From the IMG/VR virus record IMGVR_UViG_643692022_000004: a stretch of 12,837 nt of DNA; one strand, written 5' to 3'. A program made the position numbers and the translations under genes. This document shows, one piece after another, positions 1 to 12,837 of the stretch; position 1 is the first letter of the stretch; each line of letters starts with the position of its first letter. The notes beneath the pieces were generated by a model that had not been told where the DNA came from, searched no databases, and saw nothing but the letters and a program-made list of their open reading frames with translations. This stretch comes from a virus (taxonomy: Duplodnaviria; Heunggongvirae; Uroviricota; Caudoviricetes).

Positions 1-243
1 TCACTCACTTACCAGCCAGAATTCCGCTTCTTCGAACATTTCCTGAACGACGGCACTTATCCGCTCTTTCTCATGTTTGCTGGCATCCGTGTTAATCGCT
101 GGCAGTGTCATCATCGGTTTAACCCGGACATCTGCATCCGGGAAGATCCGGTGCACTCTCTTACTCAGTTCATCTAAAATGATCTCTTTTGCACCAGGCA
201 GACCATCAAAATTCCTTTTGTCATAAACGAGTTCCACGAACAT
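1..243 (-). CDS. DinI-family DNA-damage-inducible protein (80 aa)
   Basis: Complete minus-strand ORF: ATG at 243-241, TGA at 3-1, AAGAGG-like RBS about 7 nt upstream. The C-terminal half (ELSKRVHRIFPDADVRV...KERISAVVQEMFEEAEFWLVSE) resembles E. coli DinI as I recall it (…ELSRRIQYAFPD…KQRISEILQETWESADDWFVSE). Two LexA-box-like palindromes lie immediately upstream. Confidence 0.7.
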   Translation of the reverse strand: MFVELVYDKRNFDGLPGAKEIILDELSKRVHRIFPDADVRVKPMMTLPAINTDASKHEKERISAVVQEMFEEAEFWLVSE

Positions 244-260
244 TGCGCATTGCCTCTTAA

Positions 261-300
261 CTGGACGTATATACAGTTTTTATACTGTATTTCTAACCAG
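261..300. promoter_or_regulatory. Tandem LexA (SOS) operator-like boxes upstream of the DinI-like gene
   Basis: CTGgacgtatataCAG (261-276) and CTGTatttctaaCCAG (285-300) both fit CTG-N10-CAG / CTGT-N8-ACAG. The second, in context TACTGTATTTCTAACCAGTA, closely resembles the dinI SOS box as I recall it. They sit 18-57 bp upstream of the ATG at 243. Confidence 0.6.
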
Positions 301-459
301 TATTCAAGATATGGCACTTCGCATCTACTATTCAGATGCACGCCTACATCATCAATGATGTGAGAACGGTAGAGCTTGAGGATTATATTTTTGTACGCAT
401 AAGCAGACTGAATTCGCAATACGCGGGTTCAGATTCTTGATAAATTGCGCATTGTTCCT

Positions 460-557
460 GCCGGATGCGGGGTAAATGTTTTGTTCGTTCTGAAATGTCA
501 ATAAAATACAATGCATTTCAGGAGGTTAGTCGGCCTGATAAGCGTAGCGCATCAGGC
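460..557. repeat. REP-like extragenic palindromic sequences
   Basis: GCCGGATGCGG (460-470) and the imperfect palindrome GGCCTGATAAGCGTAGCGCATCAGGC (532-557) match the enterobacterial REP/PU motif family from memory; no convincing ORF covers them. Confidence 0.45.
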
Positions 558-963
558 AATTTGCATTTGTCATCAGTCGCAATCCGCATTACATGGTTCT
601 TTATTGTCACTACTCAAATTCGCTGTCGCCATTTTGCCGCCACAGCCCAAGAAAAAGGCTACGCTTTCGCGTATCCATTTGATTTATTTTATGAGTGCGA
701 AATATCGTCAGCACACACTTCTATGGCTCTGTCTTTCTTTACATTCCACCTACGCTCGGCAACTAACAGAAAGTGTTGGTATTGGCCTCATGGGAATTTC
801 TCGCTGTTTTTTCTGATGTTCCAGAGGAGCGTCATTGCCATGAGTCGTCTCCATGCTTTTAGACCCAATGAAAACGATGGTTCTTTTCGTTGGGCCTGAC
901 AATGGGCTTAAAAAGTTCAGAATAAATTAGTTTGCTTGAGATTTTGCGAGACAAATTGAAGGC

Positions 964-984
964 ACAAAAAAGCCCGCAGGGCTT
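964..984 (-). terminator. Intrinsic-terminator-like hairpin, probable displaced ancestral ssrA terminator
   Basis: On the minus strand AGCCC-tgc-GGGCT is followed by a 6-T run (966-971). It is a near-identical copy of the hairpin just downstream of the ssrA 3' end at 12368-12386. Confidence 0.4.
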
Positions 985-1044
985 GCGCCATGCAGGCTTT
1001 CAGGACTTCATCGGATGGCTCTGGTAATCACCGATGGAGAATTT

Positions 1045-1066
1045 TGGTGGGCTGGCGGAGTTTGAA
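1045..1066. other. Distal attachment site (attL-like): degenerate direct repeat of the ssrA 3' end
   Basis: tggtgggctggcggagtttgaa versus the ssrA 3' terminus tggtggagctggcgggagttgaacc at 12436-12460 (shared blocks tggtgg / gctggcgg / agtt / gaa), in the same orientation and again adjacent to a copy of the terminator hairpin. Confidence 0.45.
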
Positions 1067-1119: not shown

Positions 1120-1141
1120 CGTATACCTAATCGTATACCAA
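1120..1141. promoter_or_regulatory. Putative integrase arm-type binding sites (alpha-proximal arm)
   Basis: cgtatacct-aat-cgtataccaa; the same two motifs recur four times, in both orientations, at 12272-12323 next to int and the ssrA core. Confidence 0.35.
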
Positions 1142-1200
1142 TGGCTGTAAGTTAATGTGAAATGAAAGCGTATTTTTATTTGGATTGATGCTATATCGTA

Positions 1201-1500
1201 CAGGAAAAAATTTTTTTTCGAAAGAACTGTTCACACTGTTCACCCTTTGATTTTCTCCTTTTATTTCATAGTGATAGGTGGTGAATAATGGGTGAAGGGT
1301 GAACATTCGATTCTTCACCTCCGGCATTCTGCCGGTGTGACTCATACCGGTGATTAATCCCCCGTACTGAAAATCGCACAGGGAGAAAAAAGTTTTTTTT
1401 GATTTGATTGTTCACACTGTTCACCTTTCATTTTTCTCTTTTAATTTCAGTGTGATAACGGGTGAACATACGGTGAAGGGTGAACAGTGGATTGTTCACC
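1201..1500. repeat. crr-like cis replication region: two ~120-bp direct repeats carrying TGTTCACC-type octamer iterons
   Basis: Unit 1 (~1201-1320) and unit 2 (~1381-1500) each begin with an A-run/T-run and contain tgttcaca, tgttcacc and inverted ggtgaaca copies (e.g. 1228-1244, 1298-1305, 1409-1425, 1461-1468, 1479-1486, 1493-1500). TGTTCACC is the recalled binding octamer of the P4 alpha C-terminal domain. Confidence 0.7.
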
Positions 1501-1550: not shown

Positions 1551-3884
1551 TCAGGCTGTTGCAGGGTCGTCACATTTTGGCAGCCAGTCGCCGTAGCTTT
1601 CCTCTTTCAGTGTCAGGTTGGTCTGTATCCCCTGTTTGGTATGGCGCTTCTCGTAATTCAGTCCGTATTCCTTCAGCATCACCGGCAGCCCCAGCCCGAA
1701 CATTTTCAGACTGAGTACATTCCGGTAGCCGTTTGCCTCCATGTAGGCCAGATAGGCGTGATAGAGGTATTTACGGTAATTACGCGGGATGATACTGGCG
1801 TTCCCCATATACATGCCGCTGGTCTGCGGCAGGGTTTCCAGATAGCCGATAAAATCAAACGTCGGGTCGGCATCCCGTTTGATGTTCAGTGCCTCGTCTG
1901 AGTTCTGCTGGGACTGAAGCAGTGACCGGGCGAGCATCGGGTCGCTGAACTTCTGCATCAGGTGACGCACGATGACCGCCAGCTCGCGGGTGATTTTGTC
2001 CTTAAGCTGCGGGTCGCGCTCCTGCGGGGCTATCTGTTCCGGGAAGTGAATAATCACCCGCCGGCGTGACACGCCGCCGCTGCGGTCGGTGAAGCGCATC
2101 GGGTTATTGTTCACGGCCAGAATCACCGCCGGGATGTGCGTGGAGTACGCATCCCGGTATTTCGGGTCAACGGACACTGCATCGCCGCCGGTGATGGCCT
2201 TGAGTCCGGCTCCGTCGCCGCTCCATTTTTCCTGGTCCGGCAGGCGTATCAGTGAGAAGCCAGTTAACGCGGCACGTTCACGCGGGGATTCCAGCGTCTC
2301 AATGGTGGCCGACGTGGCGTTATCCTCACCGGCCAGCAGGGTGGCTATTTCGGCCATGATACTTTTGCCGCTGCCGCCGGGACCGGTCACCTCCAGAAAG
2401 AGCTGCCAGTCGTAGCGGTTTGCCAGCACCATAAACAGTGCGGCCAGAATCACGTCGCGTTTTTCCGCACGACCACCGGCAGCACGGTCAAGCCAGCGCC
2501 AGAACGCGGGAGCGTGGGTTTCCAGCGTTTCACCGTCCACCGGCGGGGTGAAATCCACATCACACAGGGTACGCATCCAGTGTGACGGACTGTGCGGGTG
2601 GAACGTACCGTTCTGCGTGTCGAGCACGCCGTTACGAAAGCCAATCAGGCGGCGGGAGGGGGCTTCCTGCTGCGGAATAATCAGCTTCAGGGTGTCCACC
2701 ACGGAGGCCACCTTCCCGGAGGAGAATGGCGCGCGCAGACGCTGAAACAGCCCGGCCACATCCCGGGCAAAGTCCTGTGGCGGCAGCACCTTCCAGACAC
2801 CATTTTCATAGCGGGACAGAAGCTGGCCGTTGGCATCGACCGCGAGCGCCTCGCCGTAATGCTCATAGATACGCATGGCCTTTTCGCTGGTACTCATGGC
2901 GGAAAACTCCGCTTCGCTCATGGTGTCGAACGGGCTTTCAGCCGGTGGCCGGATGGCATCATAAATGGCCTTACGGGTGGCCTCCCCGCCGTACTGCGTG
3001 AAGGCATCATTCCAGTCACCGAAGACCGGCGGCAGGGCAACAACACCTTCACACGCATCTGCGGCTGCGGCGGCTTTTTTCTGGCCGTCACCGCTGAGGT
3101 CACGGTCAGCGGCAAGGACAATCTGACAGGCGGGGTGCTTCTGCCGGGCAAGGCTGGCCAGAGAAAGGAGGTTCACGGAAGAAAGCGCCACCATCACCGT
3201 TTCACCGGTCAGGTGATGCACGGTAAGTGCGGTCGCGTATCCCTCCGCTATCCACAGACGTTTTCCGGCCTGATTCTGTCCTTCAAGGATGTGACAGGTG
3301 CCCCTGACCTGTCCGCCTTTCAGGGTGCGCTTACGGCCGTCAGCACTGATTAACTGAAGGTTAACCAGTTCGCCGCGGTCGTCATACAGTGGCACCACAA
3401 GGTCACCGGCGCGCCAGCTCACGCCACCGGCTCTGTGTGTGCCGGTCAGCATCCGGCATTCCCGGCCGGGAAAGCCCTTGCGGGTCAGGTAGGCGTTACC
3501 GGTTCCGGGACGGGTTTTCGCCATCAGGGTTTGTGCCAGTGCGGCGGCGTTCTTCCGGGCAGCGTCTGTTTCAGCAACAGCGGCGGTCGTCACTGCCGGG
3601 TCAGCCGGGGGCAGGCTGCCGGTCACGGCAGCCACCTTTGCGGCCGCATCGGACGGGGAAACACCAAACACCTTTTCAACCAGTTTCAGGCCGTCACCGG
3701 CACCACACTGATTGCAGTACCAGGTGCCGCGCCCCTCCCTGTCATCAAAACGGAAGCGGTCACTCCCGCCACAGACCGGACAGGGCTGATGACGGTTCTT
3801 CAGCACCTGAATCCCCAGCGCCGGGAGGATACGCGGCCAGTGGCCGAGTGCATGGCTGACGGTGGCGGTTACGTTCATTTTCAT
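1551..3884 (-). CDS. alpha: P4 alpha-type primase-helicase (777 aa)
   Basis: ATG at 3884 with AAGGAG RBS. N-terminal zinc-binding primase motif CPVCGGSDRFRFDDREGRGTWYCNQCG, Walker A VTGPGGSGKS of a D5/SF3-type helicase, and length matching the recalled 777 aa of P4 alpha. Flanked by its cognate octamer iterons. Confidence 0.95.
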   Translation of the reverse strand: MKMNVTATVSHALGHWPRILPALGIQVLKNRHQPCPVCGGSDRFRFDDREGRGTWYCNQCGAGDGLKLVEKVFGVSPSDAAAKVAAVTGSLPPADPAVTTAAVAETDAARKNAAALAQTLMAKTRPGTGNAYLTRKGFPGRECRMLTGTHRAGGVSWRAGDLVVPLYDDRGELVNLQLISADGRKRTLKGGQVRGTCHILEGQNQAGKRLWIAEGYATALTVHHLTGETVMVALSSVNLLSLASLARQKHPACQIVLAADRDLSGDGQKKAAAAADACEGVVALPPVFGDWNDAFTQYGGEATRKAIYDAIRPPAESPFDTMSEAEFSAMSTSEKAMRIYEHYGEALAVDANGQLLSRYENGVWKVLPPQDFARDVAGLFQRLRAPFSSGKVASVVDTLKLIIPQQEAPSRRLIGFRNGVLDTQNGTFHPHSPSHWMRTLCDVDFTPPVDGETLETHAPAFWRWLDRAAGGRAEKRDVILAALFMVLANRYDWQLFLEVTGPGGSGKSIMAEIATLLAGEDNATSATIETLESPRERAALTGFSLIRLPDQEKWSGDGAGLKAITGGDAVSVDPKYRDAYSTHIPAVILAVNNNPMRFTDRSGGVSRRRVIIHFPEQIAPQERDPQLKDKITRELAVIVRHLMQKFSDPMLARSLLQSQQNSDEALNIKRDADPTFDFIGYLETLPQTSGMYMGNASIIPRNYRKYLYHAYLAYMEANGYRNVLSLKMFGLGLPVMLKEYGLNYEKRHTKQGIQTNLTLKEESYGDWLPKCDDPATA

Positions 3885-5283: not shown

Positions 5284-5402
5284 GGCAGCCTCCGTTAGAT
5301 AGCAGGTTACGCTATCGCCGGAGTTTCCACGCTCGATGGCGATAGCCCAGACGGGGGTGGAAATACCGGCTCTAACGGATACCGGCCAGCCCGGAGGCTG
5401 CC
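5284..5402 (-). ncRNA. Candidate CI-like immunity RNA (structured RNA in the P4 immunity region)
   Basis: Perfect 11-bp long-range inverted repeat ggcagcctccg (5284-5294) / cggaggctgcc (5392-5402) enclosing a perfect 9-bp hairpin gctatcgcc (5311-5319) / ggcgatagc (5338-5346). The locus lies between vis and epsilon where P4 encodes the CI RNA. Exact ends are uncertain. Confidence 0.3.
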
Positions 5403-5528
5403 CCGCCTGAGCTACCATTGACTCTGCGGCATAATGAGCGGACGCGGGCAGGATGCACGGAGTGCCATCTGCTCGACTGACCACACACCACACCATAATC
5501 TGGCGCTCTGTGGCGTTGATTGCGACAC

Positions 5529-5550
5529 AAAAAAAGACGCATGGCGCGTC
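5529..5550 (-). terminator. Candidate attenuator/terminator hairpin in the leader between the early promoter and the CI-like RNA
   Basis: On the minus strand the stem GACGC/GCGTC (5546-5550 / 5536-5540) with loop GCCAT is followed by a 7-T run (5529-5535). The stem is short, so the call is weak. Confidence 0.35.
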
Positions 5551-5613
5551 ATATGTCGCCGTTAGATTGCTCGGGTTTCCACGCCCGGCTGCCGATTTTG
5601 CGACAGCGGAAAA

Positions 5614-6224: not shown

Positions 6225-6328
6225 GGTGAACAGTGGTGAACAGACGGTGAACAGTCATTACTGCGATTGTTCACCCTTTAACTTACTGTATTACTTATCT
6301 TTTTTCTTATGGTGAACAGAGGTGAACA
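6225..6328. repeat. ori-like replication origin: cluster of six GGTGAACA/TGTTCACC octamer iterons
   Basis: ggtgaaca at 6225-6232, 6235-6242, 6246-6253, 6311-6318, 6321-6328 and tgttcacc at 6268-6275, followed by an A/T-rich stretch (6331-6350). Same octamer as in crr, and located between vis and sid as in P4. Confidence 0.65.
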
Positions 6329-6426: not shown

Positions 6427-6498
6427 TCTGCAATGCGTCGTGTTGTTGTCCGGTGTACGTCACAATTTTCTCAACCTGAAGTGACGAGGAGCCGGAAA

Positions 6499-7233
6499 AT
6501 GTCTGACAACACCATCCCTGAATATCTGCAACCCGCACTGGCACAACTGGAAAAGGCCAGAGCCGCCCACCTTGAGAACGCCCGACTGATGGATGAGACC
6601 GTCACGGCCATTGAACGGGCAGAGCAGGAAAAAAATGCGCTGGCGCAGGCCGACGGAAACGACGCTGACGACTGGCGCACGGCCTTTCGTGCAGCCGGTG
6701 GTGTCCTGAGCGACGAGCTGAAACAGCGCCACATTGAGCGCGTGGCACGCCGGGAGCTGGTACAGGAATATGACAATCTGGCCGTGGTGCTGAATTTCGA
6801 ACGTGAACGCCTGAAAGGGGCGTGTGACAGCACGGCCACCGCCTACCGGAAGGCACATCATCACCTTCTGAGTCTGTATGCAGAGCATGAGCTGGAACAC
6901 GCCCTGAATGAAACCTGTGAGGCGCTTGTCCGGGCAATGCATCTGAGCATTCTGGTACAGGAAAATCCGCTCGCCAACACCACCGGCCATCAGGGCTACG
7001 TCGCACCGGAAAAGGCTGTCATGCAGCAGGTGAAATCATCGCTGGAACAGAAAATTAAACAGATGCAAATCAGCCTCACCGGCGAGCCGGTTCTCCGGCT
7101 GACCGGACTGTCAGCGGCAACACTTCCTCACATGGATTATGAGGTGGCAGGCACACCGGCACAGCGCAAGGTGTGGCAGGACAAAATAGACCAGCAGGGA
7201 GCAGTGCTTAAGGCCAGAGGACTGCTGTCATGA
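6499..7233 (+). CDS. sid: Sid-like capsid size determination (external scaffold) protein (244 aa)
   Basis: ATG at 6499 preceded by AGGAG (6486-6490); the track ORF begins 66 nt further upstream but lacks an RBS. The product starts MSDNTIPEYL and is 244 aa, the recalled length of P4 Sid. First gene of the sid-delta-psu operon. Confidence 0.85.
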   Translation: MSDNTIPEYLQPALAQLEKARAAHLENARLMDETVTAIERAEQEKNALAQADGNDADDWRTAFRAAGGVLSDELKQRHIERVARRELVQEYDNLAVVLNFERERLKGACDSTATAYRKAHHHLLSLYAEHELEHALNETCEALVRAMHLSILVQENPLANTTGHQGYVAPEKAVMQQVKSSLEQKIKQMQISLTGEPVLRLTGLSAATLPHMDYEVAGTPAQRKVWQDKIDQQGAVLKARGLLS

Positions 7234-7730
7234 TTTACTGCCCGTCGTGTGGACATGTTGCTCACACCCGCCGCGCACATTTCATGGACGATGGCACCAA
7301 GATAATGATTGCACAGTGCCGGAATATTTATTGCTCTGCGACATTTGAAGCGAGTGAAAGCTTTTTCTCTGACAGTAAAGATTCAGGAATGGAATACATT
7401 TCAGGCAAACAGAGATACCGCGATTCACTGACGTCAGCCTCCGGCAGTATGAAACGCCCGAAAAGAATGCTTGTTACCGGATATTGTTGTCGGAGATGTA
7501 AAGGCCTTGCACTGTCAAGAACATCGCGGCGTCTGTCTCAGGAAGTCACCGAGCGTTTTTATGTGTGCACGGATCCGGGCTGTGGTCTGGTGTTTAAAAC
7601 GCTTCAGACCATCAACCGCTTCATTGTCCGCCCGGTCACGCCGGACGAACTGGCAGAAATCCTGCATGAAAAACAGGAACTGCCGCCAGTACGCTTAAAA
7701 ACACAATCATATTCGCTGCGTCTGGAATGA
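7230..7730 (+). CDS. delta: Delta-like late transcriptional activator (166 aa, tandem Ogr-type zinc-finger domains)
   Basis: Start overlaps the sid stop (ATGA at 7230-7233). Two Cys4 modules: CPSCGH...CRNIYC and CRRCKG...CTDPGC. Length equals the recalled 166 aa of P4 Delta. Confidence 0.9.
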   Translation: MIYCPSCGHVAHTRRAHFMDDGTKIMIAQCRNIYCSATFEASESFFSDSKDSGMEYISGKQRYRDSLTSASGSMKRPKRMLVTGYCCRRCKGLALSRTSRRLSQEVTERFYVCTDPGCGLVFKTLQTINRFIVRPVTPDELAEILHEKQELPPVRLKTQSYSLRLE

Positions 7731-7803: not shown

Positions 7804-8376
7804 ATGGAAAGCACAGCCTTACAGCAGGCCTTTGACACCTGTCAGAATAACAAAGCAGCATGGCTGCAACGCAAAAATGAGCTGGCTGCGGCCGAACAGG
7901 AATATCTGCGGCTTCTGTCCGGGGAAGGCAGAAACGTCAGTCGCCTGGACGAATTACGCAATATTATCGAAGTCAGAAAATGGCAGGTGAATCAGGCTGC
8001 CGGTCGTTATATTCGTTCGCATGAAGCCGTTCAGCACATCAGCATCCGCGACCGGCTGAATGATTTTATGCAGCAGCACGGCACAGCACTGGCGGCCACA
8101 CTGGCACCGGAGCTGATGGGCTACAGTGAGCTGACGGCCATTGCCCGAAACTGTGCCATACAGCGTGCCACAGATGCCCTGCGTGAAGCCCTTCTGTCCT
8201 GGCTTGCGAAGGGGGAAAAAATTAATTATTCCGCACAGGATAGCGACATTTTAACGACCATCGGATTCAGGCCTGACGCGGCTTCGGTGGATGACAGCCG
8301 TGAAAAATTCACTCCTGCGCAGAACATGATTTTTTCGCGTAAAAGTGCGCAACTGGCATCACATCAGTCTGTGTAA
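7804..8376 (+). CDS. psu: Psu-like polarity suppression / capsid decoration protein (190 aa)
   Basis: 190-aa ORF starting MESTALQQAFDTCQNN, matching my recollection of P4 Psu in sequence start and length; last gene before cos. Confidence 0.9.
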   Translation: MESTALQQAFDTCQNNKAAWLQRKNELAAAEQEYLRLLSGEGRNVSRLDELRNIIEVRKWQVNQAAGRYIRSHEAVQHISIRDRLNDFMQQHGTALAATLAPELMGYSELTAIARNCAIQRATDALREALLSWLAKGEKINYSAQDSDILTTIGFRPDAASVDDSREKFTPAQNMIFSRKSAQLASHQSV

Positions 8377-8411
8377 AACTCCCCGAAAATCCGCCCGTTT
8401 TTACTGAAAAA

Positions 8412-8450
8412 AGCCATGCATCGATAAGGTGCATGGCTTTGCATGCGTTT
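8412..8450 (+). terminator. Candidate terminator of the late operon
   Basis: 8-bp stem AGCCATGC/GCATGGCT (8412-8419 / 8431-8438) followed by a T-containing tail (ttgcatgcgtttt), about 35 nt after the psu stop. Confidence 0.4.
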
Positions 8451-8540
8451 TCCTGCCTCATTTTCTGCAAACCGCGCCATTCCCGGCGCGGTCTGAGCGT
8501 GTCAGTGCAACTGCATTAAAACCGCCCCGCAAAGCGGGCG

Positions 8541-8559
8541 GGCGAGGCGGGGAAAGCAC
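8541..8559. other. cos site (P2/P4-type 19-nt cohesive end)
   Basis: GGCGAGGCGGGGAAAGCAC matches the P2/P4 cohesive-end sequence as I recall it; preceded by a GC-rich hairpin CCGCCCCGC-aaa-GCGGGCGG (8522-8543). Confidence 0.65.
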
Positions 8560-8575
8560 TGCGCGCTTAAGTATA

Positions 8576-11026
8576 TTATTGTTTTGCACTTAAAATATTA
8601 TCAACAACTCGTTTCACACTTTCGAAAGATGACTCTCCTGTTTTAAAAGATTCGTTCATGTCAAAATAACTAGGTTTATTTACAAAACTACTCCAAGCAT
8701 TTGACAGGTAATCTTTGAATGCAATGGAGCGTTTATATCGATCCTCAATATTGAATGACTCACATGAAGCTCGCATATTATTGACTACTTCAGGATTAAA
8801 TATAGGAGTGTCAAATACCATTGCATCAAGATAGGCGAAATCACTTATCCATCGCTTGAGATGATACAAACCAATAGATGTGATTCTAAATTTCGTTGGC
8901 ATTTCTCCTATTAAACCTGTTTCGTCCTCTTCAAATGTAAACCTCTGTGAGGTCTCTATTAATTTTTTGTTTGTCGTTCTTCTTAGCGCATTTTCAGTCT
9001 GCTCAGGAATAAAACCAAGGCTTTGCATTTCATCTATAATGGACTTGGTTAGACAGAATCCATCCCGGTCCTGAAGCTCTTTTTTTTCTGATAATAGCGC
9101 CATTATTAATGGTACTAAAAAGTGTTCTGATATATCTGCAAAAGAAACATCAAAAATATTCATGGCAAGAGATGTGTTTGGATCAAAGTGTGAATATTCA
9201 CCAAGTAAAGCTTGTTTAGAAAATTCATGTACAGGAATTATATATCTACCTTCTTCTTCGTAAGTTCGAATTATTTTATCCGCTTCAACATTTGGGCTGC
9301 CTATAAAACCAGTAATAAAGCTAAGCGCTTGTCTTACATTGCCTCCCGTAATGTTTTCAATAAACTCTCCTAGTGATTTATTTTTTCTTAGAGATTGAAG
9401 CAATACTCTGATAAATGAAGAAAGATTGTCTATATGGATTCTAACAAATTCGGCATGTTCAAGAGGTATCTTTCCTTCAGACATTTCGAGAGCAAACTGA
9501 AGTCGTTTATCAAGAACTTGATCTATCCTTGGTGGTGCAATTGTAAAGACCTTGTGGGGATAAGCAGTTAATGCACCTGATGCTTTTGATTTAAAGAATG
9601 TCTGAGGTCTGACAGATATAAATACTAAAGCATTCCAATCTTTTGCTAACTCCTGAGAAATAACAAATGCTCGCTGTTGCGTTTCGAAATCTCGTTGATC
9701 AGCATTATCTAGACAAATAATTACTTGCTTTTTAGTTTGTTTTGATAAATGAGCGATTGAGTTTTTTAAATGTTCATCTTTAGCATCTAATTTTTCCGCC
9801 AACATCTCAAGTTGTTTTTCCTCATATCGTTCTCTATTTGAATCTCGTAAACTCCCCCAGATTCCTTTTGAAAACCTTTGAATATCTCTTGAATATACGC
9901 CTTTAACAAATTTCATTTCGGTTATATCACAGGAGTATTTATTGTCTAGTTGTTGCTCTATCTCATTTAATATAAATTTTTGAAGATTATTAGCTAATGT
10001 TGCTTTAGAGCCTAAATCTATATATAAATAAATTGCCTCTTTAAATTCTTTGAATGCACTTGAATAAATTAAATTTTTTACAAATGACGTTTTACCAACA
10101 CCAACATCACCAATTAATACAATTGGACGCTTTGATAGAGCCTCGGCCATAATACTTGGATCTAAAGTTTGCTCTTTACGATCAGGTTTAACAGAAGTTA
10201 TATGTGGAGATAATTCATTGTCACTAAATAGAGCAGCATATCTGGCTTGAAGCATTTCTTTACTTAGCAAAGCATATTTTGAAAGGGCACCACTTTCGCA
10301 GTAGCATTTTTGGTAAAAAATCTCTTCAATTTCATTGCTTTCAAGAGCATCTTGAATTATTAATTCTGATATTTGTCTTAATGAGGTCTGTATATCACTA
10401 GCATAGCGTATTTTAGGATACATTGATAAATAGGTTGATAATTTATTTGGAATACCACTTATGTCAGAGGTAAGATACTTAATTAAACGTTGTTCTTTCA
10501 CACCGTAATATGAAAGCATATTCCATGCTAAAGAAAAGTTCCGTAATAAAGAATCCAAACTGTCAAAAACTAAAGCTTTTCCCTCTAAAGGCGAACAGCC
10601 ATTTTGAGTGCTTGCAATAAATGATATAAATTGATGTCCATTAGTGGCTATTGCAATTGGTGTTCCTCGTGATGAACAATATTTTTGTACCTGTATAATT
10701 GCGTCTTTTAAATCGTCATTTGATCTTAAGAGAGTTGGTATGTCGATTATGTTCTTATTTGATAAACCTGCTGGTATTTCAAAAGTCCGGCCTTCTCTTT
10801 TCGCTTCAACAATAACTTGCCGTGGCTTTCCTAATTCATAATCTGTAAAAGTATGATCATGATAGTTTTCAACTTCTATTTGATCATCAGGCCAGCTAAG
10901 AACGTCAATAATTATTTTGTTTATTATATGATGCCTAGTCTGGGCTTCATTTCTTATCTTGGCGCTGTCACTATATTCGTTTACTAATTCTCTTAATAAA
11001 TTTTCGGCTTGTATCATTGTAACCAT
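8576..11026 (-). CDS. Candidate anti-phage defence protein: N-terminal PD-(D/E)xK nuclease (HsdR-N/Mrr-like) fused to a P-loop NTPase with a C-terminal domain of unknown function (816 aa)
   Basis: Uninterrupted 816-codon ORF, ATG at 11026 with GGAGAG RBS 7 nt upstream. Residues ~26-76: NEAQTRHHIINKII...IEVE...DYEL...VIVEAKREG, the E/D/ExK pattern of HsdR-N/Mrr-type nucleases. Walker A GDVGVGKTS (~306-314), extended Walker B VIICLDNADQ (~435-444), and GGNVRQAL (~561-568) resembling an AAA+/STAND sensor motif. No SF2 helicase motifs. Sits in the P4 psu/cos-int slot; strongly AT-rich against a GC-rich backbone. Confidence 0.85.
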   Translation of the reverse strand: MVTMIQAENLLRELVNEYSDSAKIRNEAQTRHHIINKIIIDVLSWPDDQIEVENYHDHTFTDYELGKPRQVIVEAKREGRTFEIPAGLSNKNIIDIPTLLRSNDDLKDAIIQVQKYCSSRGTPIAIATNGHQFISFIASTQNGCSPLEGKALVFDSLDSLLRNFSLAWNMLSYYGVKEQRLIKYLTSDISGIPNKLSTYLSMYPKIRYASDIQTSLRQISELIIQDALESNEIEEIFYQKCYCESGALSKYALLSKEMLQARYAALFSDNELSPHITSVKPDRKEQTLDPSIMAEALSKRPIVLIGDVGVGKTSFVKNLIYSSAFKEFKEAIYLYIDLGSKATLANNLQKFILNEIEQQLDNKYSCDITEMKFVKGVYSRDIQRFSKGIWGSLRDSNRERYEEKQLEMLAEKLDAKDEHLKNSIAHLSKQTKKQVIICLDNADQRDFETQQRAFVISQELAKDWNALVFISVRPQTFFKSKASGALTAYPHKVFTIAPPRIDQVLDKRLQFALEMSEGKIPLEHAEFVRIHIDNLSSFIRVLLQSLRKNKSLGEFIENITGGNVRQALSFITGFIGSPNVEADKIIRTYEEEGRYIIPVHEFSKQALLGEYSHFDPNTSLAMNIFDVSFADISEHFLVPLIMALLSEKKELQDRDGFCLTKSIIDEMQSLGFIPEQTENALRRTTNKKLIETSQRFTFEEDETGLIGEMPTKFRITSIGLYHLKRWISDFAYLDAMVFDTPIFNPEVVNNMRASCESFNIEDRYKRSIAFKDYLSNAWSSFVNKPSYFDMNESFKTGESSFESVKRVVDNILSAKQ

Positions 11027-11049
11027 CGAAAACTCTCCAAATGAAAAAA

Positions 11050-12249
11050 TTAAAAGGATAAAGATTTATGAACAAAAGAACTCCACCAGTTCATTAAATT
11101 CTTCCTTTGTTCTAAGTAAGTAGAACGGTTATAAGCTTTTCTGACTTCATTCTTATCGCTATGAGCTAAGGCTGATTCTATTACATCAGCGTTAAATTCG
11201 GCTTCATTCATTGCAGTGCTGGCAATAGAACGTAAACCATGAGCAACGAGTTTTCCACCATATCCTATCCTTTTTAAAGCGGCATTTGCAGTTTGGCTAT
11301 TCATGGGTTTTTGTGGATCATTTCTACTTGGGAAAACATACTCACGATGAGCACTAATAGTTTTCATAACTTCAAGAATATCTAAAGCCTTAGGTGATAA
11401 AGGTACAATATGTTCGCGCTTAGCTTTCATCCTTTCAGCAGGAATTCTCCAGAGTTTTGCATCAAAATCGATCTCCTTCCATTGAGTGCCTGAAGCCTCT
11501 GAAGGGCGCACAAGGGTGAGTAGTTGCCATTCAATCAGACAACGGGTCTGCACAGAAAGATTTGACATAGATAAAGAATACATAAGTTTCGGTAATTCTT
11601 CAGGTCGTAGTGTTGGCATGTTTTTCTTTTTAGGTTTCTCAAATGCCATACCAATACCTGATGCAGGATTAGCGTCAATTAAGCCAGTATTAACGGCATA
11701 AATCATAATTTCATTAATACGTTGTACCAAACGACGAACAGTTTCAAGTGCTCCACGAGCTTTAATTGGTTCTAAGGTTTCAATTAATGTACGAGCTTTT
11801 ATTTTCTGAACAGGAATTTCACCGATAGTAGGGAAAATATCTCTCTCTAAGGAGCGCCATACATCCTTTGCGTAATCAGGTGTTACGTTGTTTCTTTTTA
11901 TGGCAAACCATTTTGAGGCAACGTTTGAAAAAATACTATCTTCCGCAATCTGTTGCTGTACAGTGACTTGCTCACTGTATATCTGTGGATCAATACCTCG
12001 GGCCAGCAAGGAAAGATACTCAGCACGAGTGTTTCTGGCTTCAGCCAGAGAAAGGGCAGGGAAAGACCCTAAACCAATCATGGTTCGTTGTTTTGTTACT
12101 GGTTTCTGGTATCGGAAACGCCACAGCTTCCTACCGTTCGTTTTTACGAGTAGAAAAAGTCCATTACCATCATGTAGCGTTAGATCCTTTGCAGTTGCTT
12201 TAGCCCGTGATAGTTCAGTGTTAGTAAGAGGGCGTGTTGTACGTGACAC
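11050..12249 (-). CDS. int: Tyrosine integrase (P4-family, 399 aa), ssrA-specific
   Basis: N-terminus typical of P4-family integrases (...RPLTNTELSRAKA...LHDGNGLFLLVKTNGRKLWRFRY...), C-terminal catalytic region with HGLR and a tyrosine in KAYNRSTY. Apparent GTG start at 12249 with a GAGGT RBS. Directly adjacent to the ssrA 3' end. Confidence 0.9.
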   Translation of the reverse strand: MSRTTRPLTNTELSRAKATAKDLTLHDGNGLFLLVKTNGRKLWRFRYQKPVTKQRTMIGLGSFPALSLAEARNTRAEYLSLLARGIDPQIYSEQVTVQQQIAEDSIFSNVASKWFAIKRNNVTPDYAKDVWRSLERDIFPTIGEIPVQKIKARTLIETLEPIKARGALETVRRLVQRINEIMIYAVNTGLIDANPASGIGMAFEKPKKKNMPTLRPEELPKLMYSLSMSNLSVQTRCLIEWQLLTLVRPSEASGTQWKEIDFDAKLWRIPAERMKAKREHIVPLSPKALDILEVMKTISAHREYVFPSRNDPQKPMNSQTANAALKRIGYGGKLVAHGLRSIASTAMNEAEFNADVIESALAHSDKNEVRKAYNRSTYLEQRKNLMNWWSSFVHKSLSF

Positions 12250-12271
12250 GATTATCCTACCTCAGAGAGAA

Positions 12272-12323
12272 TTGGTATACGCTTTTAGGTATACATCTTA
12301 CCGTATACCTAAACGTATACCAA
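12272..12323. promoter_or_regulatory. Cluster of four arm-type integrase-binding-like repeats between int and the att core
   Basis: ttggtatacg (12272-12281), aggtatac (12287-12294), cgtatacct (12302-12310), cgtataccaa (12314-12323): two motifs in inverted then direct orientation, and the same pair recurs at 1120-1141. Overlaps the expected int promoter. Confidence 0.4.
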
Positions 12324-12367
12324 TAATCACTGGATTTAGCGGGATATTCTCGGACAACTGCGGACAC

Positions 12368-12386
12368 AAAAAAGCCCACAGGGCTT
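12368..12386 (-). terminator. Rho-independent terminator downstream of ssrA, supplied by the element
   Basis: On the minus strand AGCCC-tgt-GGGCT is followed by a 6-T run (12368-12373), about 50 nt beyond the tmRNA 3' CCA end. Confidence 0.5.
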
Positions 12387-12435
12387 GTGCCATGCGGGCT
12401 TTCAGGATTTTTCCGGACATATCCGGAAGAGCAAG

Positions 12436-12798
12436 TGGTGGAGCTGGCGGGAGTTGAACCCGCGTCCGAAATTCCTACATCCTCGGTACTACATGCTTAG
12501 TCAGTCTTTACATTCGCTTGCCAGCTGCGGACGGACACGCCACTAACAAACTAGCCTGATTAAGTTTTAACGCTTCAACCCCAGGCAGGGCTTCCACGCG
12601 ATCTCTTTTGGGTTTGACCTCTCTTGATCCCCGTCCTAAGAGCGGAGGCTAGGGAGAGAGGGCTCTAAGCAGGTTATTAAGCTGCTAAAGCGTAGTTTTC
12701 GTCGTTTGCGACTATTTTTTGCGGCTTTTTACGAGGCCAACCGCCCCTCGGCATGCACCTTGGGTTTCGCAAATCCCGTCGAATCCAGAATCAGCCCC
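12436..12798 (-). ncRNA. ssrA: tmRNA (transfer-messenger RNA)
   Basis: Reverse complement begins GGGGCTGATTCTGGATTCGACGGG and ends ...GGTTCAACTCCCGCCAGCTCCACCA; contains the tag reading frame GCAAACGACGAAAACTACGCTTTAGCAGCTTAA (ANDENYALAA). 363 nt, matching E. coli ssrA as recalled. Confidence 0.95.
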
Positions 12799-12837
12799 AA
12801 TGTGTAACAGTAAGTATACCAGATTTATGAGCGCCAT

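What the first reader, a model, noticed from the sequence alone, without database searches (positions are those of the whole stretch)
11026..12330. Candidate defence gene lies 23 bp downstream of int on the same strand: probable int-defence operon controlled from the arm-site region
The int stop (11050-11052) and the cargo ATG (11026) are separated by only 23 bp with no hairpin/T-run terminator between them, and the cargo gene has its own RBS. Co-transcription from the int promoter, which overlaps the arm-type repeats at 12272-12323, would couple defence expression to integrase regulation. This placement is not what a free-standing defence cassette with its own promoter would look like.
Basis: inference. 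Interest (0 to 1): 0.5.

Follow-up and report, generated by a model that had tools for sequence, protein, structure and literature searches.

The report
Promoterless cargo gene docked behind integrase
In a P4-like phage satellite inserted at the E. coli tmRNA gene, a candidate anti-phage gene sits 23 bases behind the integrase gene with no promoter or terminator of its own, an arrangement kept in seven genera, so the two are probably transcribed together; this is a plausible but untested refinement of a known defence hotspot.

Summary
The int stop codon (11050-11052) and the cargo ATG (11026) are 23 bp apart on the minus strand. The spacer has a GGAGAG ribosome-binding site and no hairpin.

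The window is a complete P4-like satellite integrated at ssrA. The 816-aa cargo occupies the known psu/cos-int defence hotspot, and this exact protein is listed as "hypothetical" in Rousset 2022.

- **Tandem conserved.** int-cargo recurs in 11 lineages of seven enterobacterial genera, with 9-33 bp spacers whose sequence is not conserved.
- **Elsewhere free-standing.** Cargo homologues not next to an integrase have a median of about 241 bp upstream.
- **Other cargos.** Other E. coli ssrA islands dock different cargos -4 to +27 bp behind int.
- **Best promoter.** TTGGTA-17-TAAGAT (12323-12295) lies inside four GGTATAC arm-type repeats and is positionally conserved. No conserved promoter signal was found in the int 3' end.

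An int-cargo operon under Int autoregulation is therefore the best reading (about 0.57). No transcript data exist, an internal promoter is not excluded, and the cargo's defence role is unproven. Interest is modest: a new member of a known kind.

The parts
12436..12798 (-). ssrA (tmRNA), integration target; its 3' end is the att core
   Evidence: ARAGORN, tag ANDENYALAA; Rfam RF00023, 295.8 bits
12364..12403 (-). Island-borne replacement terminator for ssrA: hairpin plus U6. It insulates int from ssrA transcription.
   Evidence: Terminator scan. Fold -22.6 kcal/mol, z -5.08. Conserved in 8 lineages. Its 82%-identical host copy is at 954-1015.
12274..12321 (.). Four arm-type GGTATAC repeats (P arm): two on each strand
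   Evidence: 7 matches in the window against 0.67 expected; inverted and direct repeat families; conserved across genera
12295..12323 (-). Candidate int promoter: -35 TTGGTA (12323-12318), 17-nt spacer, -10 TAAGAT (12300-12295), interleaved with the arm repeats
   Evidence: Read. Conserved as TTGGTA-17-TAnnnT in 7 of 8 aligned lineages. Highest-scoring promoter-like site in the 1.5 kb upstream of the cargo in 8 of 10 lineages scanned and conserved in position in 9 (10.5-12.7 bits; 8.4 in L097, absent in L071).
11050..12249 (-). int, P4-type tyrosine integrase with an arm-binding domain; a mosaic gene
   Evidence: Pfam Arm-DNA-bind_3, Phage_int_M, Phage_integrase. NCBIfam PRK09692, 583 bits. 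The 5' ~60% (alignment columns 101-800) is 84-95% identical to L077, the 3' ~40% only 68-78%.
11027..11049 (-). 23-bp int-cargo spacer with RBS GGAGAG (11038-11033); no hairpin
   Evidence: Spacers of 9-33 bp in 11 lineages.
8576..11026 (-). Cargo gene, 816 aa: N-terminal PD-ExK-like motif (D62, E74, K76), ORC/Cdc6-like AAA+ ATPase (Walker A GDVGVGKT 306-313) and a C-terminal helical region. Candidate defence gene.
   Evidence: Pfam AAA_22 only; invariant residues; Foldseek top hits ORC4/Cdc6; listed in Rousset 2022 Table S1 as a hypothetical P4-hotspot locus; dN/dS about 0.03
8522..8541 (-). Terminator-like hairpin with a T-run, the likely end of the int-cargo transcription unit
   Evidence: Terminator scan. 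Fold -17 kcal/mol but z only -0.94.
8541..8559 (+). cos cohesive-end 19-mer, identical to P4, 16 bp beyond the cargo stop codon
   Evidence: Exact match to GGCGAGGCGGGGAAAGCAC, 0.01 expected
1120..1142 (-). Two arm-type repeats of the P' arm near attR
   Evidence: 96% identical to 12302-12324
954..1065 (-). attR: duplicated ssrA 3' end plus the original host terminator
   Evidence: Direct repeat D2, 954-1015 against 12356-12417, 82%; sequence read
7804..8376 (+). psu, the other boundary of the hotspot; convergent with the cargo
   Evidence: Pfam Psu, 1.5e-88

Best explanation
The 816-aa gene is the variable cargo of a P4-like satellite integrated at ssrA. It is docked as a promoterless passenger directly behind int.

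Most likely int and the cargo form one transcription unit of about 3.75 kb. It would start at a sigma-70 promoter (TTGGTA-17-TAAGAT, 12323-12295) interleaved with four Int arm-binding repeats. It would end at the hairpin beside cos (8541-8522). The cargo would be translated independently from its own GGAGAG site.

Because the promoter sits inside the arm sites, Int binding would throttle transcription of both genes. The cargo would then be held at a low, self-limited level in the integrated state. The strong island-borne terminator after ssrA shields the unit from ssrA transcription.

The 3' half of int and the cargo appear to travel together as an exchange module.

**Shown:** the anatomy, its conservation and the lack of alternative signals.

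**Inferred:** the transcript, the autoregulation and the defence role.
For: 1. Same strand, 23-bp gap, RBS, no terminator and an unstructured junction.
2. The tandem is conserved in 11 lineages from Escherichia, Pectobacterium, Dickeya, Klebsiella, Enterobacter, Yersinia and Serratia, with spacers of 9-33 bp. Apart from the RBS the spacer sequence is unconserved. Cargo dS between the lineage pairs computed is 1.9 or more, or saturated (the two Yersinia loci are close, dS 0.02), and dN/dS is about 0.03.
3. In 51 loci where homologues are not behind an integrase, the median upstream gap is about 241 bp and only one has a same-strand ORF within 40 bp. Xenorhabdus has 605 bp and Leminorella 359 bp of AT-rich upstream DNA.
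4. Other E. coli ssrA-P4 islands place unrelated cargos (NACHT, SIR2+ATPase and others) at -4, 3, 4, 10, 11 and 27 bp behind int. Cargos on the opposite strand have 270-530 bp upstream.
5. TTGGTA-17-TAnnnT is the top-scoring site in 8 of 10 lineages scanned and is conserved in position in 9, at 10.5-12.7 bits (8.4 bits in Enterobacter L097). In the window, sites in the last 420 nt of int score 8.1 bits or less.
6. There is no synonymous-site conservation peak in the int 3' end: 0.41-0.49 against 0.41 overall. The junction alignment shows no conserved -10/-35 pair beyond what the amino acids dictate.
7. Arm-type repeats sit on both island arms.
8. Negative autoregulation of P4-like integrases through promoters that overlap attL is documented for PAI I536 IntI and is cited for P4 Int and other prophage integrases (PMC7286903).
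9. PARIS-1, a P4-hotspot system whose cloned sequence begins in coding-like sequence that I read as the int 3' end (about 90 nt), was inactive from that native fragment. It became active from Ptet.
Against: - No transcript data exist, so everything about transcription is inference.
- The int 3' half is 33-40% GC, where weak promoters arise easily. Seven of ten lineages have TTGAAC-18-CATGGT about 58 nt before the cargo ATG, although the window does not.
- From my own recollection of Piazzolla et al. 2006 (not retrievable here), P4 lysogens show only short 5' int transcripts. That would leave a downstream gene poorly expressed in the prophage state, which is awkward for a defence gene.
- In Klebsiella, Enterobacter and Yersinia rohdei int is a pseudogene yet the cargo is intact. 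In Y. rohdei the -10 and three repeats are deleted. That damage is recent, with dS 0.02 to an intact relative, so it weighs little.
- Rousset 2022 states that hotspot systems occur in either orientation, and several co-oriented ones work from short native fragments.
Confidence: 0.57

Rival explanations
1. The cargo is transcribed mainly from its own weak promoter embedded in the AT-rich 3' coding part of int. The two genes would be neighbours but separately controlled, and the tight spacing would reflect only compaction of a packaging-limited 11-kb satellite.
For: - The int 3' half is 33-40% GC.
- Promoter-like hits of 7-10 bits occur in the last 420 nt of int in every lineage. TTGAAC-18-CATGGT at about -58 recurs in 7 of 10.
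- The cargo stays intact where int is a pseudogene.
- A P4-hotspot system (hydrolase+3TM) was active when cloned with a sequence that, as I read it, begins with about 90 nt of int 3' coding sequence followed by a 57-nt spacer.
Against: - In the window the -58 site is degraded, and the best internal hit scores 8.1 bits against 10.5 for the arm-site promoter.
- The recurrent internal motifs coincide with conserved codons (YLEQR, MxWW), so coding constraint explains them.
- No synonymous-site conservation peak.
- Promoter-like sites in 8300-12837 are no more frequent than in shuffles: 10 against 13.8.
Confidence: 0.25
2. Expression of int and the cargo in the integrated state is driven mainly by read-through from the very strongly transcribed ssrA gene directly upstream. 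The cargo would then be on only when the island is integrated.
For: ssrA, int and the cargo are all co-oriented, with only 186 bp between ssrA and int. This holds in every ssrA-integrated lineage examined.
Against: The island supplies a strong, conserved intrinsic terminator immediately after ssrA: -22.6 kcal/mol, z -5.08, U6 tail, invariant stem in 8 lineages. Its conservation suggests that insulation is selected for.
Confidence: 0.07
3. The adjacency has no regulatory meaning. The int stop codon is simply the recombination boundary of the hotspot, and the cargo is silent or expressed only after induction or infection.
For: - Mosaic int, with a breakpoint-like change of identity inside the gene.
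- The literature documents rapid swapping at this hotspot.
- The cargo is rare in E. coli: 2 of 5426 genomes.
Against: - Strong purifying selection on the cargo (dN/dS about 0.03) and retention of the tandem over saturating divergence.
- Every lineage keeps an RBS at the right distance.
Confidence: 0.08

Closest known systems
P4 psu/cos-int defence hotspot (Rousset et al. 2022, PMC9122126; Moura de Sousa et al. 2026, PMC13586616)
   Same: Same position: between psu/cos and int of a P4-like satellite. The exact protein, WP_000258270, is in their Table S1A as a one-gene 'hypothetical' locus. cos is identical to P4.
   Different: - Those papers treat int only as a boundary marker, and state that systems occur in either orientation.
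- They clone candidates behind their own upstream fragment or behind Ptet.
- They do not describe co-transcription with int, the near-zero spacing, or co-exchange of the int 3' half.
- This cargo was not tested.
Phage P4 int-cII arrangement (NC_001609)
   Same: int is followed on the same strand by a non-essential hotspot gene (cII), with a terminator after it and cos beyond.
   Different: The P4 gap is 66 bp, not 23. P4 Int targets a leucine tRNA gene, not ssrA, and cII is unrelated to this cargo. I could not retrieve Ghisotti et al. 1990 to see how cII is transcribed.
Negatively autoregulated P4-like and prophage integrase promoters that overlap attL (P4 Int/Vis, PAI I536 IntI, KplE1 IntS)
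   Same: The integrase promoter is embedded among integrase-binding sites next to attL. The literature reports self-repression.
   Different: Those studies concern the integrase alone. Here a second, unrelated gene would ride on the same feedback loop. Binding and repression were not tested.
Small serine recombinase-defence bicistrons (E. faecalis EF_B0058/EF_B0059; RADS pipeline, PMC13552941)
   Same: A recombinase gene is followed within 100 bp, on the same strand, by a defence gene, and in the founding case the two were shown to share an mRNA.
   Different: That recombinase is a small serine recombinase in Bacillota, on plasmids. Here it is a P4-type tyrosine integrase of a phage satellite in Enterobacterales.
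Integron platform (Pc promoter within intI expressing promoterless cassettes), from my own knowledge
   Same: Functional analogy only: exchangeable promoterless cargo depends on a promoter belonging to the recombinase platform.
   Different: In integrons Pc points away from intI, and cassettes are exchanged at attI/attC sites. Here the cargo is downstream and co-oriented, and exchange looks like homologous recombination inside int and at cos.
STAND/ORC-Cdc6-like AAA+ defence proteins with nuclease effectors (Avs-type, RdrA-type)
   Same: One large protein with an N-terminal nuclease-like motif, a central AAA+ NTPase and a C-terminal helical region. Foldseek hits ORC4/Cdc6, and more distantly RdrA.
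   Different: No PADLOC family matches beyond a weak mad8 hit, E 2.5e-4. No NCBIfam match. No solved relative by sequence.

Membership tests
P4-like phage satellite | Core genes int, psu, delta, sid, alpA, ash/epsilon and alpha in P4 order | tested here: met
   Pfam finds Psu, Ogr_Delta, the primase/D5 domains and the integrase domains, and AlpA, Derepression (epsilon), Phage_ASH and DUF5375. sid has no Pfam hit, but the 266-aa listed ORF (244 aa as annotated in RefSeq) sits in the P4 sid position.
P4-like phage satellite | P2/P4 cos site and C4-type immunity RNA | tested here: met
   Exact cos 19-mer at 8541-8559. Rfam C4 at 5335-5422 and isrK at 5530-5607.
P4 psu-int defence hotspot occupant | Variable gene(s) between psu/cos and int | tested here: met
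   The cargo at 8576-11026 lies between cos (8541-8559) and int (11050-12249). Different genes occupy this slot in 11 other E. coli islands. It is listed in Rousset Table S1A.
P4 psu-int defence hotspot occupant | Demonstrated anti-phage activity | not testable with these tools
   No experiment is available. The evidence is association only: hotspot position, domain make-up, and Mrr, type I RM S-subunit and Schlafen-like helicase neighbours of distant homologues.
Operon (single transcription unit int-cargo) | Same strand, short intergenic distance, no intervening terminator | tested here: met
   23 bp, no hairpin
Operon (single transcription unit int-cargo) | Adjacency conserved across divergent genomes | tested here: met
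   11 lineages in 7 genera, spacers of 9-33 bp, dS saturated or about 1.9 in the lineage pairs computed, apart from the two Yersinia loci
Operon (single transcription unit int-cargo) | No promoter between or within the upstream gene serving the downstream gene | tested here: inconclusive
   No conserved signal and no synonymous constraint. Weak promoter-like matches nevertheless exist in the AT-rich int 3' end.
Operon (single transcription unit int-cargo) | A bicistronic mRNA spanning the junction | not testable with these tools
   No transcriptome data are accessible
P4-type tyrosine integrase with autoregulated promoter | Arm-binding, core-binding and catalytic domains | tested here: met
   Pfam PF13356, PF22022 and PF00589; NCBIfam PRK09692
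P4-type tyrosine integrase with autoregulated promoter | Arm-type repeats on both att arms that overlap the int promoter | tested here: met
   Four copies at 12274-12321 and two at 1121-1139. TTGGTA-17-TAAGAT is interleaved with them and conserved.
P4-type tyrosine integrase with autoregulated promoter | Int represses its own promoter | not testable with these tools
   Only precedent from relatives
Known defence-system families (PADLOC-DB v2.0.0) | Significant match to a system HMM | tested here: not met
   Only mad8, E 2.5e-4, 18.6 bits, over the P-loop region
AAA+ ORC/Cdc6-like (STAND-like) NTPase | Walker A/B motifs and the AAA+ fold | tested here: met
   Invariant G306-D-V-G-V-G-K-T313 and D440-N-A-D443. 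Foldseek hits ORC4/Cdc6 at E 4e-6 to 1e-4 on a model of pLDDT 74.7.
PD-(D/E)xK nuclease (HsdR N-terminal type) | Catalytic D...ExK motif and the nuclease fold | tested here: inconclusive
Serine-recombinase-defence bicistron (RADS) | Small serine recombinase upstream | tested here: not met
   The upstream gene is a tyrosine recombinase
'Reve' single-gene P4 defence system (PMC13586616) | Sequence identity with the published Reve protein (ATPase + KAP P-loop) | not testable with these tools
   The paper's supplementary files are not held. Some homologues carry KAP NTPase labels, so identity is possible but unknown.

The most novel reading that the evidence does not exclude
The ssrA-type P4 hotspot may work as a one-slot expression platform. 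Promoterless defence genes would be swapped in together with the 3' half of int and expressed from the Int-autoregulated arm-site promoter. Defence dosage would then be set by the recombinase's own feedback loop. It would change when the island excises, or when int decays and repression is lost, which would give a route to domesticated int-remnant-plus-defence islands such as those seen in Klebsiella and Enterobacter.
Probability: 0.2. Interest if true: 0.6.

Novelty: new member of a known kind. Interest (0 to 1): 0.35.

Why it matters
P4-like satellites are a major reservoir of anti-phage genes, but nobody has asked how hotspot cargos are expressed in their native setting. Candidates are usually cloned behind short 'native' fragments or behind Ptet.

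If co-oriented cargos with near-zero spacing depend on transcription through int, three things follow:
- Cloning them without int and its promoter could give false negatives.
- Their dosage would be tied to integrase autoregulation and to the integration state of the island.
- The unit of exchange would include part of int.

This would refine a known system rather than reveal a new one. It is cheap to test.

Tried and rejected
**Naming the cargo.** PADLOC, NCBIfam and a profile search of PDB sequences gave no family.

**Folding the N-terminal domain alone.**

**Looking for an embedded cargo promoter.** I used synonymous-codon conservation along int, a junction alignment and a position-weight scan. 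No convincing signal appeared. The recurrent TTGAAC-18-CATGGT is explained by conserved codons and is absent from the window.

**Yersinia rohdei.** I first took its damaged promoter and int, alongside an intact cargo, as evidence against dependence on Pint. I dropped this because its cargo differs from an intact-int relative by dS of only 0.02, so the damage is recent.

**Literature not available.**
- Ghisotti 1990 is not held, and I did not attempt to retrieve Piazzolla 2006. What I say about P4 int transcripts in lysogens comes from memory.
- The supplements of the 2026 NAR paper are not held, so whether 'Reve' is this family is unknown.

**Collection scans.** The viral-contig and metagenome scans added only five close loci.

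Full report
**What is in the window**

The window is a complete P4-like satellite integrated at the tmRNA gene.
- ssrA lies at 12436-12798 on the minus strand.
- Reading downstream on that strand come int (11050-12249) and an 816-aa ORF (8576-11026).
- On the plus strand are psu (7804-8376), delta (7230-7730) and a sid-sized ORF (6433-7233).
- Back on the minus strand are alpA/vis, ash, epsilon, orf151, DUF5375 and the alpha primase (1551-3884).
- Rfam finds the P4 immunity RNAs C4 and isrK.
- The 19-nt P4 cos sequence is present without mismatch at 8541-8559.
- attR, with a second copy of the ssrA 3' end and terminator, is at 954-1065.
- RefSeq annotates the same genes in E. coli SC467 and CH4799. 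They are the only 2 of 5426 complete E. coli genomes with this int-cargo pair.

**Checking the observation**

The coordinates are right.
- The int TAA is at 11052-11050.
- The spacer runs 11049-11027 (23 bp) and holds GGAGAG at 11038-11033.
- The cargo ATG is at 11026.
- The ORF cannot start further upstream, because the ORF listing begins at the first start codon after a stop.
- The terminator scan finds nothing between the genes.
- The junction folds no better than shuffles: z -0.10 over 171 nt, and -2.8 kcal/mol over 56 nt.

The arm-type repeats are real.
- GGTATAC occurs four times at 12274-12321, two copies on each strand.
- It occurs twice more at 1121-1139 beside attR.
- That is 7 matches in the window against 0.67 expected.

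**Promoter and terminators**

On the minus strand, TTGGTA (12323-12318) is followed after 17 nt by TAAGAT (12300-12295). The -35 lies in repeat 1, the spacer holds repeat 2, and the predicted start falls in repeat 3.
- In an alignment of eight lineages from different genera this persists as TTGGTA-17-TAnnnT. The variants are TAAGAT, TAAAAT, TACGAT, TATACT, TATAGT and TAGGAT, so the A2 and T6 positions are kept while inner positions vary.
- A position-weight scan ranks it the best promoter-like site in the 1.5 kb upstream of the cargo in 8 of 10 lineages, and it is conserved in position in 9. It scores 10.5-12.7 bits, or 8.4 in Enterobacter L097 where the -35 reads TCGGTA.
- In the window, the best site within the last 420 nt of int scores 8.1 bits.

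Upstream, the island supplies a strong replacement terminator for ssrA (-22.6 kcal/mol, z -5.08, U6), and it is conserved in all lineages. Downstream, a hairpin with a T-run at 8541-8522 abuts cos.

**Comparative evidence for a linked int-cargo unit**

Close orthologues of the cargo (80-84% amino-acid identity) lie directly behind an orthologous integrase at ssrA in:
- Pectobacterium, Klebsiella, Yersinia (two species), Serratia, Enterobacter and Dickeya;
- four metagenomic or viral contigs.

The spacers are 23, 28, 33, 14, 28, 25, 32, 33, 14, 9 and 25 bp. Apart from an RBS, the spacer sequence is not conserved. Cargo dN/dS is about 0.03. Synonymous sites are saturated, or dS is about 1.9, in the lineage pairs computed, apart from the two Yersinia loci (dS 0.02). 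The arrangement is therefore old.

The family itself is widespread, with more than 1000 homologues from Gammaproteobacteria to Actinomycetota.
- In 51 loci where it is not behind an integrase, the nearest upstream ORF is a median of about 241 bp away.
- Only one of these has a same-strand ORF within 40 bp.
- The two enterobacterial copies that are not behind int, in Xenorhabdus and Leminorella, have 605 and 359 bp of AT-rich upstream DNA with -10-like elements.

So the gene is normally free-standing, and it lost its upstream region where it is docked behind int.

**The pattern extends to other cargos**

In other E. coli islands with the same integrase family, the first gene after int lies on the same strand at:
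- -4 bp (545-aa hypothetical);
- 3 bp (NACHT);
- 4, 10 and 11 bp (SIR2 + ATPase);
- 27 bp (57-aa ORF);
- 72 bp (Dcm methylase);
- 98 bp (two hypotheticals).

In three islands the cargo is on the opposite strand, with 270-530 bp upstream. P4 itself has int followed by cII at 66 bp. Two docking modes therefore appear: tight and co-oriented behind int, or cos-proximal with room for a promoter.

**Mosaic integrase**

- The 5' ~60% of the window's int (alignment columns 101-800) is 84-95% identical to that of an E. coli island carrying SIR2+ATPase. Its 3' ~40% is only 68-78% identical.
- Against cross-genus same-cargo orthologues the reverse holds. For the closest orthologue (L082) the 5' part is 59-72% identical and the 3' half about 76-83%, matching the divergence of the cargo itself.
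- GC falls from about 46% at the int 5' end to about 33% at its 3' end and through the cargo. The P4 core is 55-63% GC.

The likely unit of import was the int 3' half plus the cargo.

**What the cargo is**

- Pfam gives only AAA_22 just above its cut-off.
- PADLOC gives only a weak mad8 hit, NCBIfam nothing, and PDB sequences nothing useful.
- The alignment shows an invariant Walker A (306-313), a Walker B-like DNAD (440-443) and an N-terminal D62...E74-x-K76.
- A full-length AlphaFold model (pLDDT 74.7) matches ORC4/Cdc6-type AAA+ proteins, and more distantly RdrA.
- The nuclease assignment stays tentative.
- Distant homologues sit next to Mrr, a type I RM specificity subunit and a Schlafen-like helicase.
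- The exact protein is listed as a one-gene hypothetical locus in the P4 hotspot catalogue.
- It is a reasonable defence candidate, but it has not been tested. It may or may not be the 'Reve' system of the 2026 study.

**Mechanism and rivals**

The best-supported reading is a single int-cargo transcription unit driven from the arm-site promoter and subject to Int self-repression, as reported for relatives.

Main rival: a weak promoter within the AT-rich int 3' end.
- I found no conserved signal and no synonymous constraint there.
- Such promoters need not be conserved. A TTGAAC-18-CATGGT motif recurs in seven lineages at codons that are conserved anyway, and the window lacks it.

Second rival: read-through from ssrA. 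It is possible but is opposed by the strong, conserved terminator.

Two points weigh against simple Pint dependence.
- As I recall from Piazzolla et al. 2006, which is not retrievable here, P4 lysogens show only truncated int transcripts.
- The cargo persists intact behind decayed int genes in Klebsiella, Enterobacter and Yersinia rohdei. The Yersinia damage is recent. Loss of Int would, if anything, derepress the promoter.

One hint in favour: PARIS-1 was cloned with a fragment that, as I read the sequence, starts about 90 nt inside the int 3' end. It was inactive from that fragment and became active from Ptet.

**Comparison with what is known, and verdict**

- The locus is a member of the published P4 psu-int hotspot.
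- The integrase and its arm-site promoter look like other autoregulated P4-type integrases.
- A recombinase-defence bicistron has been shown for small serine recombinases in Bacillota, not for tyrosine integrases of satellites.
- In the papers I could search, nothing describes co-transcription of hotspot cargo with int.

The finding is real and the operon inference is reasonable, but it is incremental and unproven. Interest is 0.35.

Noticed in passing
window 8541-8559 (+) and 8522-8541 (-): The P4 cos 19-mer is present without mismatch only 16 bp beyond the cargo stop codon. The terminator-like hairpin that would end the int-cargo transcript lies on the other side of the cos cut. In packaged linear DNA the cargo would therefore sit at the very end, without its terminator.
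   Followed up: partly
window 11050-12249: int is a mosaic. Its 5' ~60% is 84-95% identical to the int of an E. coli island carrying a SIR2+ATPase cargo, and its 3' ~40% only 68-78%. The 3' half and the cargo track cross-genus orthologues instead, and GC falls from about 46% to about 33% along the gene.
   Followed up: partly
window 1-878 (-): A second integrase gene (RefSeq WP_001341819, running off the window start) lies just beyond attR. At least two islands therefore sit in tandem at ssrA, each behind a copy of the ssrA 3' end and terminator.
   Followed up: no
window 1204-1324 and 1385-1505: A 121-nt direct repeat (79% identical) carries TGTTCACC-type boxes, in the position of the P4 crr replication region. 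A further box lies at 6268-6287, near the ori region.
   Followed up: no
L009/L008 (Klebsiella), L097/L098 (Enterobacter), L071 (Yersinia rohdei): The integrase upstream of the cargo is a pseudogene (frameshift, multiple frameshifts and a nonsense codon respectively), while the cargo ORF is full length. In Klebsiella the P4 core is gone altogether. In Y. rohdei three of the four arm repeats and the -10 are deleted.
   Followed up: partly
L046, L048, L064 (Embleya sp. NBC_00896, NZ_CP108776): Three copies of a cargo homologue lie 8.26 kb apart on one chromosome, which suggests a tandemly repeated unit of about 8.3 kb.
   Followed up: no
L012:3828-4904, L014:3921-4904, L024:3487-4929, L086:413-2857: Distant cargo homologues are preceded on the same strand by an Mrr-type restriction enzyme (96 bp upstream), a type I RM specificity subunit (20 bp) or a Schlafen-like helicase with an S24 peptidase domain (116 bp). 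These are defence-island-like neighbourhoods.
   Followed up: partly
window 12057-12071 (-): A weak hairpin with a T-rich tail sits about 180 nt into int (-11.9 kcal/mol, z -1.97). By recollection it is reminiscent of the premature int transcript ends reported for P4. It was one of five terminator-like matches in the region, against 3.4 expected by chance.
   Followed up: no
L074 (Xenorhabdus sp. TH1): An 82%-identical cargo copy lies 605 bp downstream of a P4-type alpha primase gene rather than behind int. This corresponds to the minor primase-att hotspot mentioned in the 2026 NAR paper.
   Followed up: no
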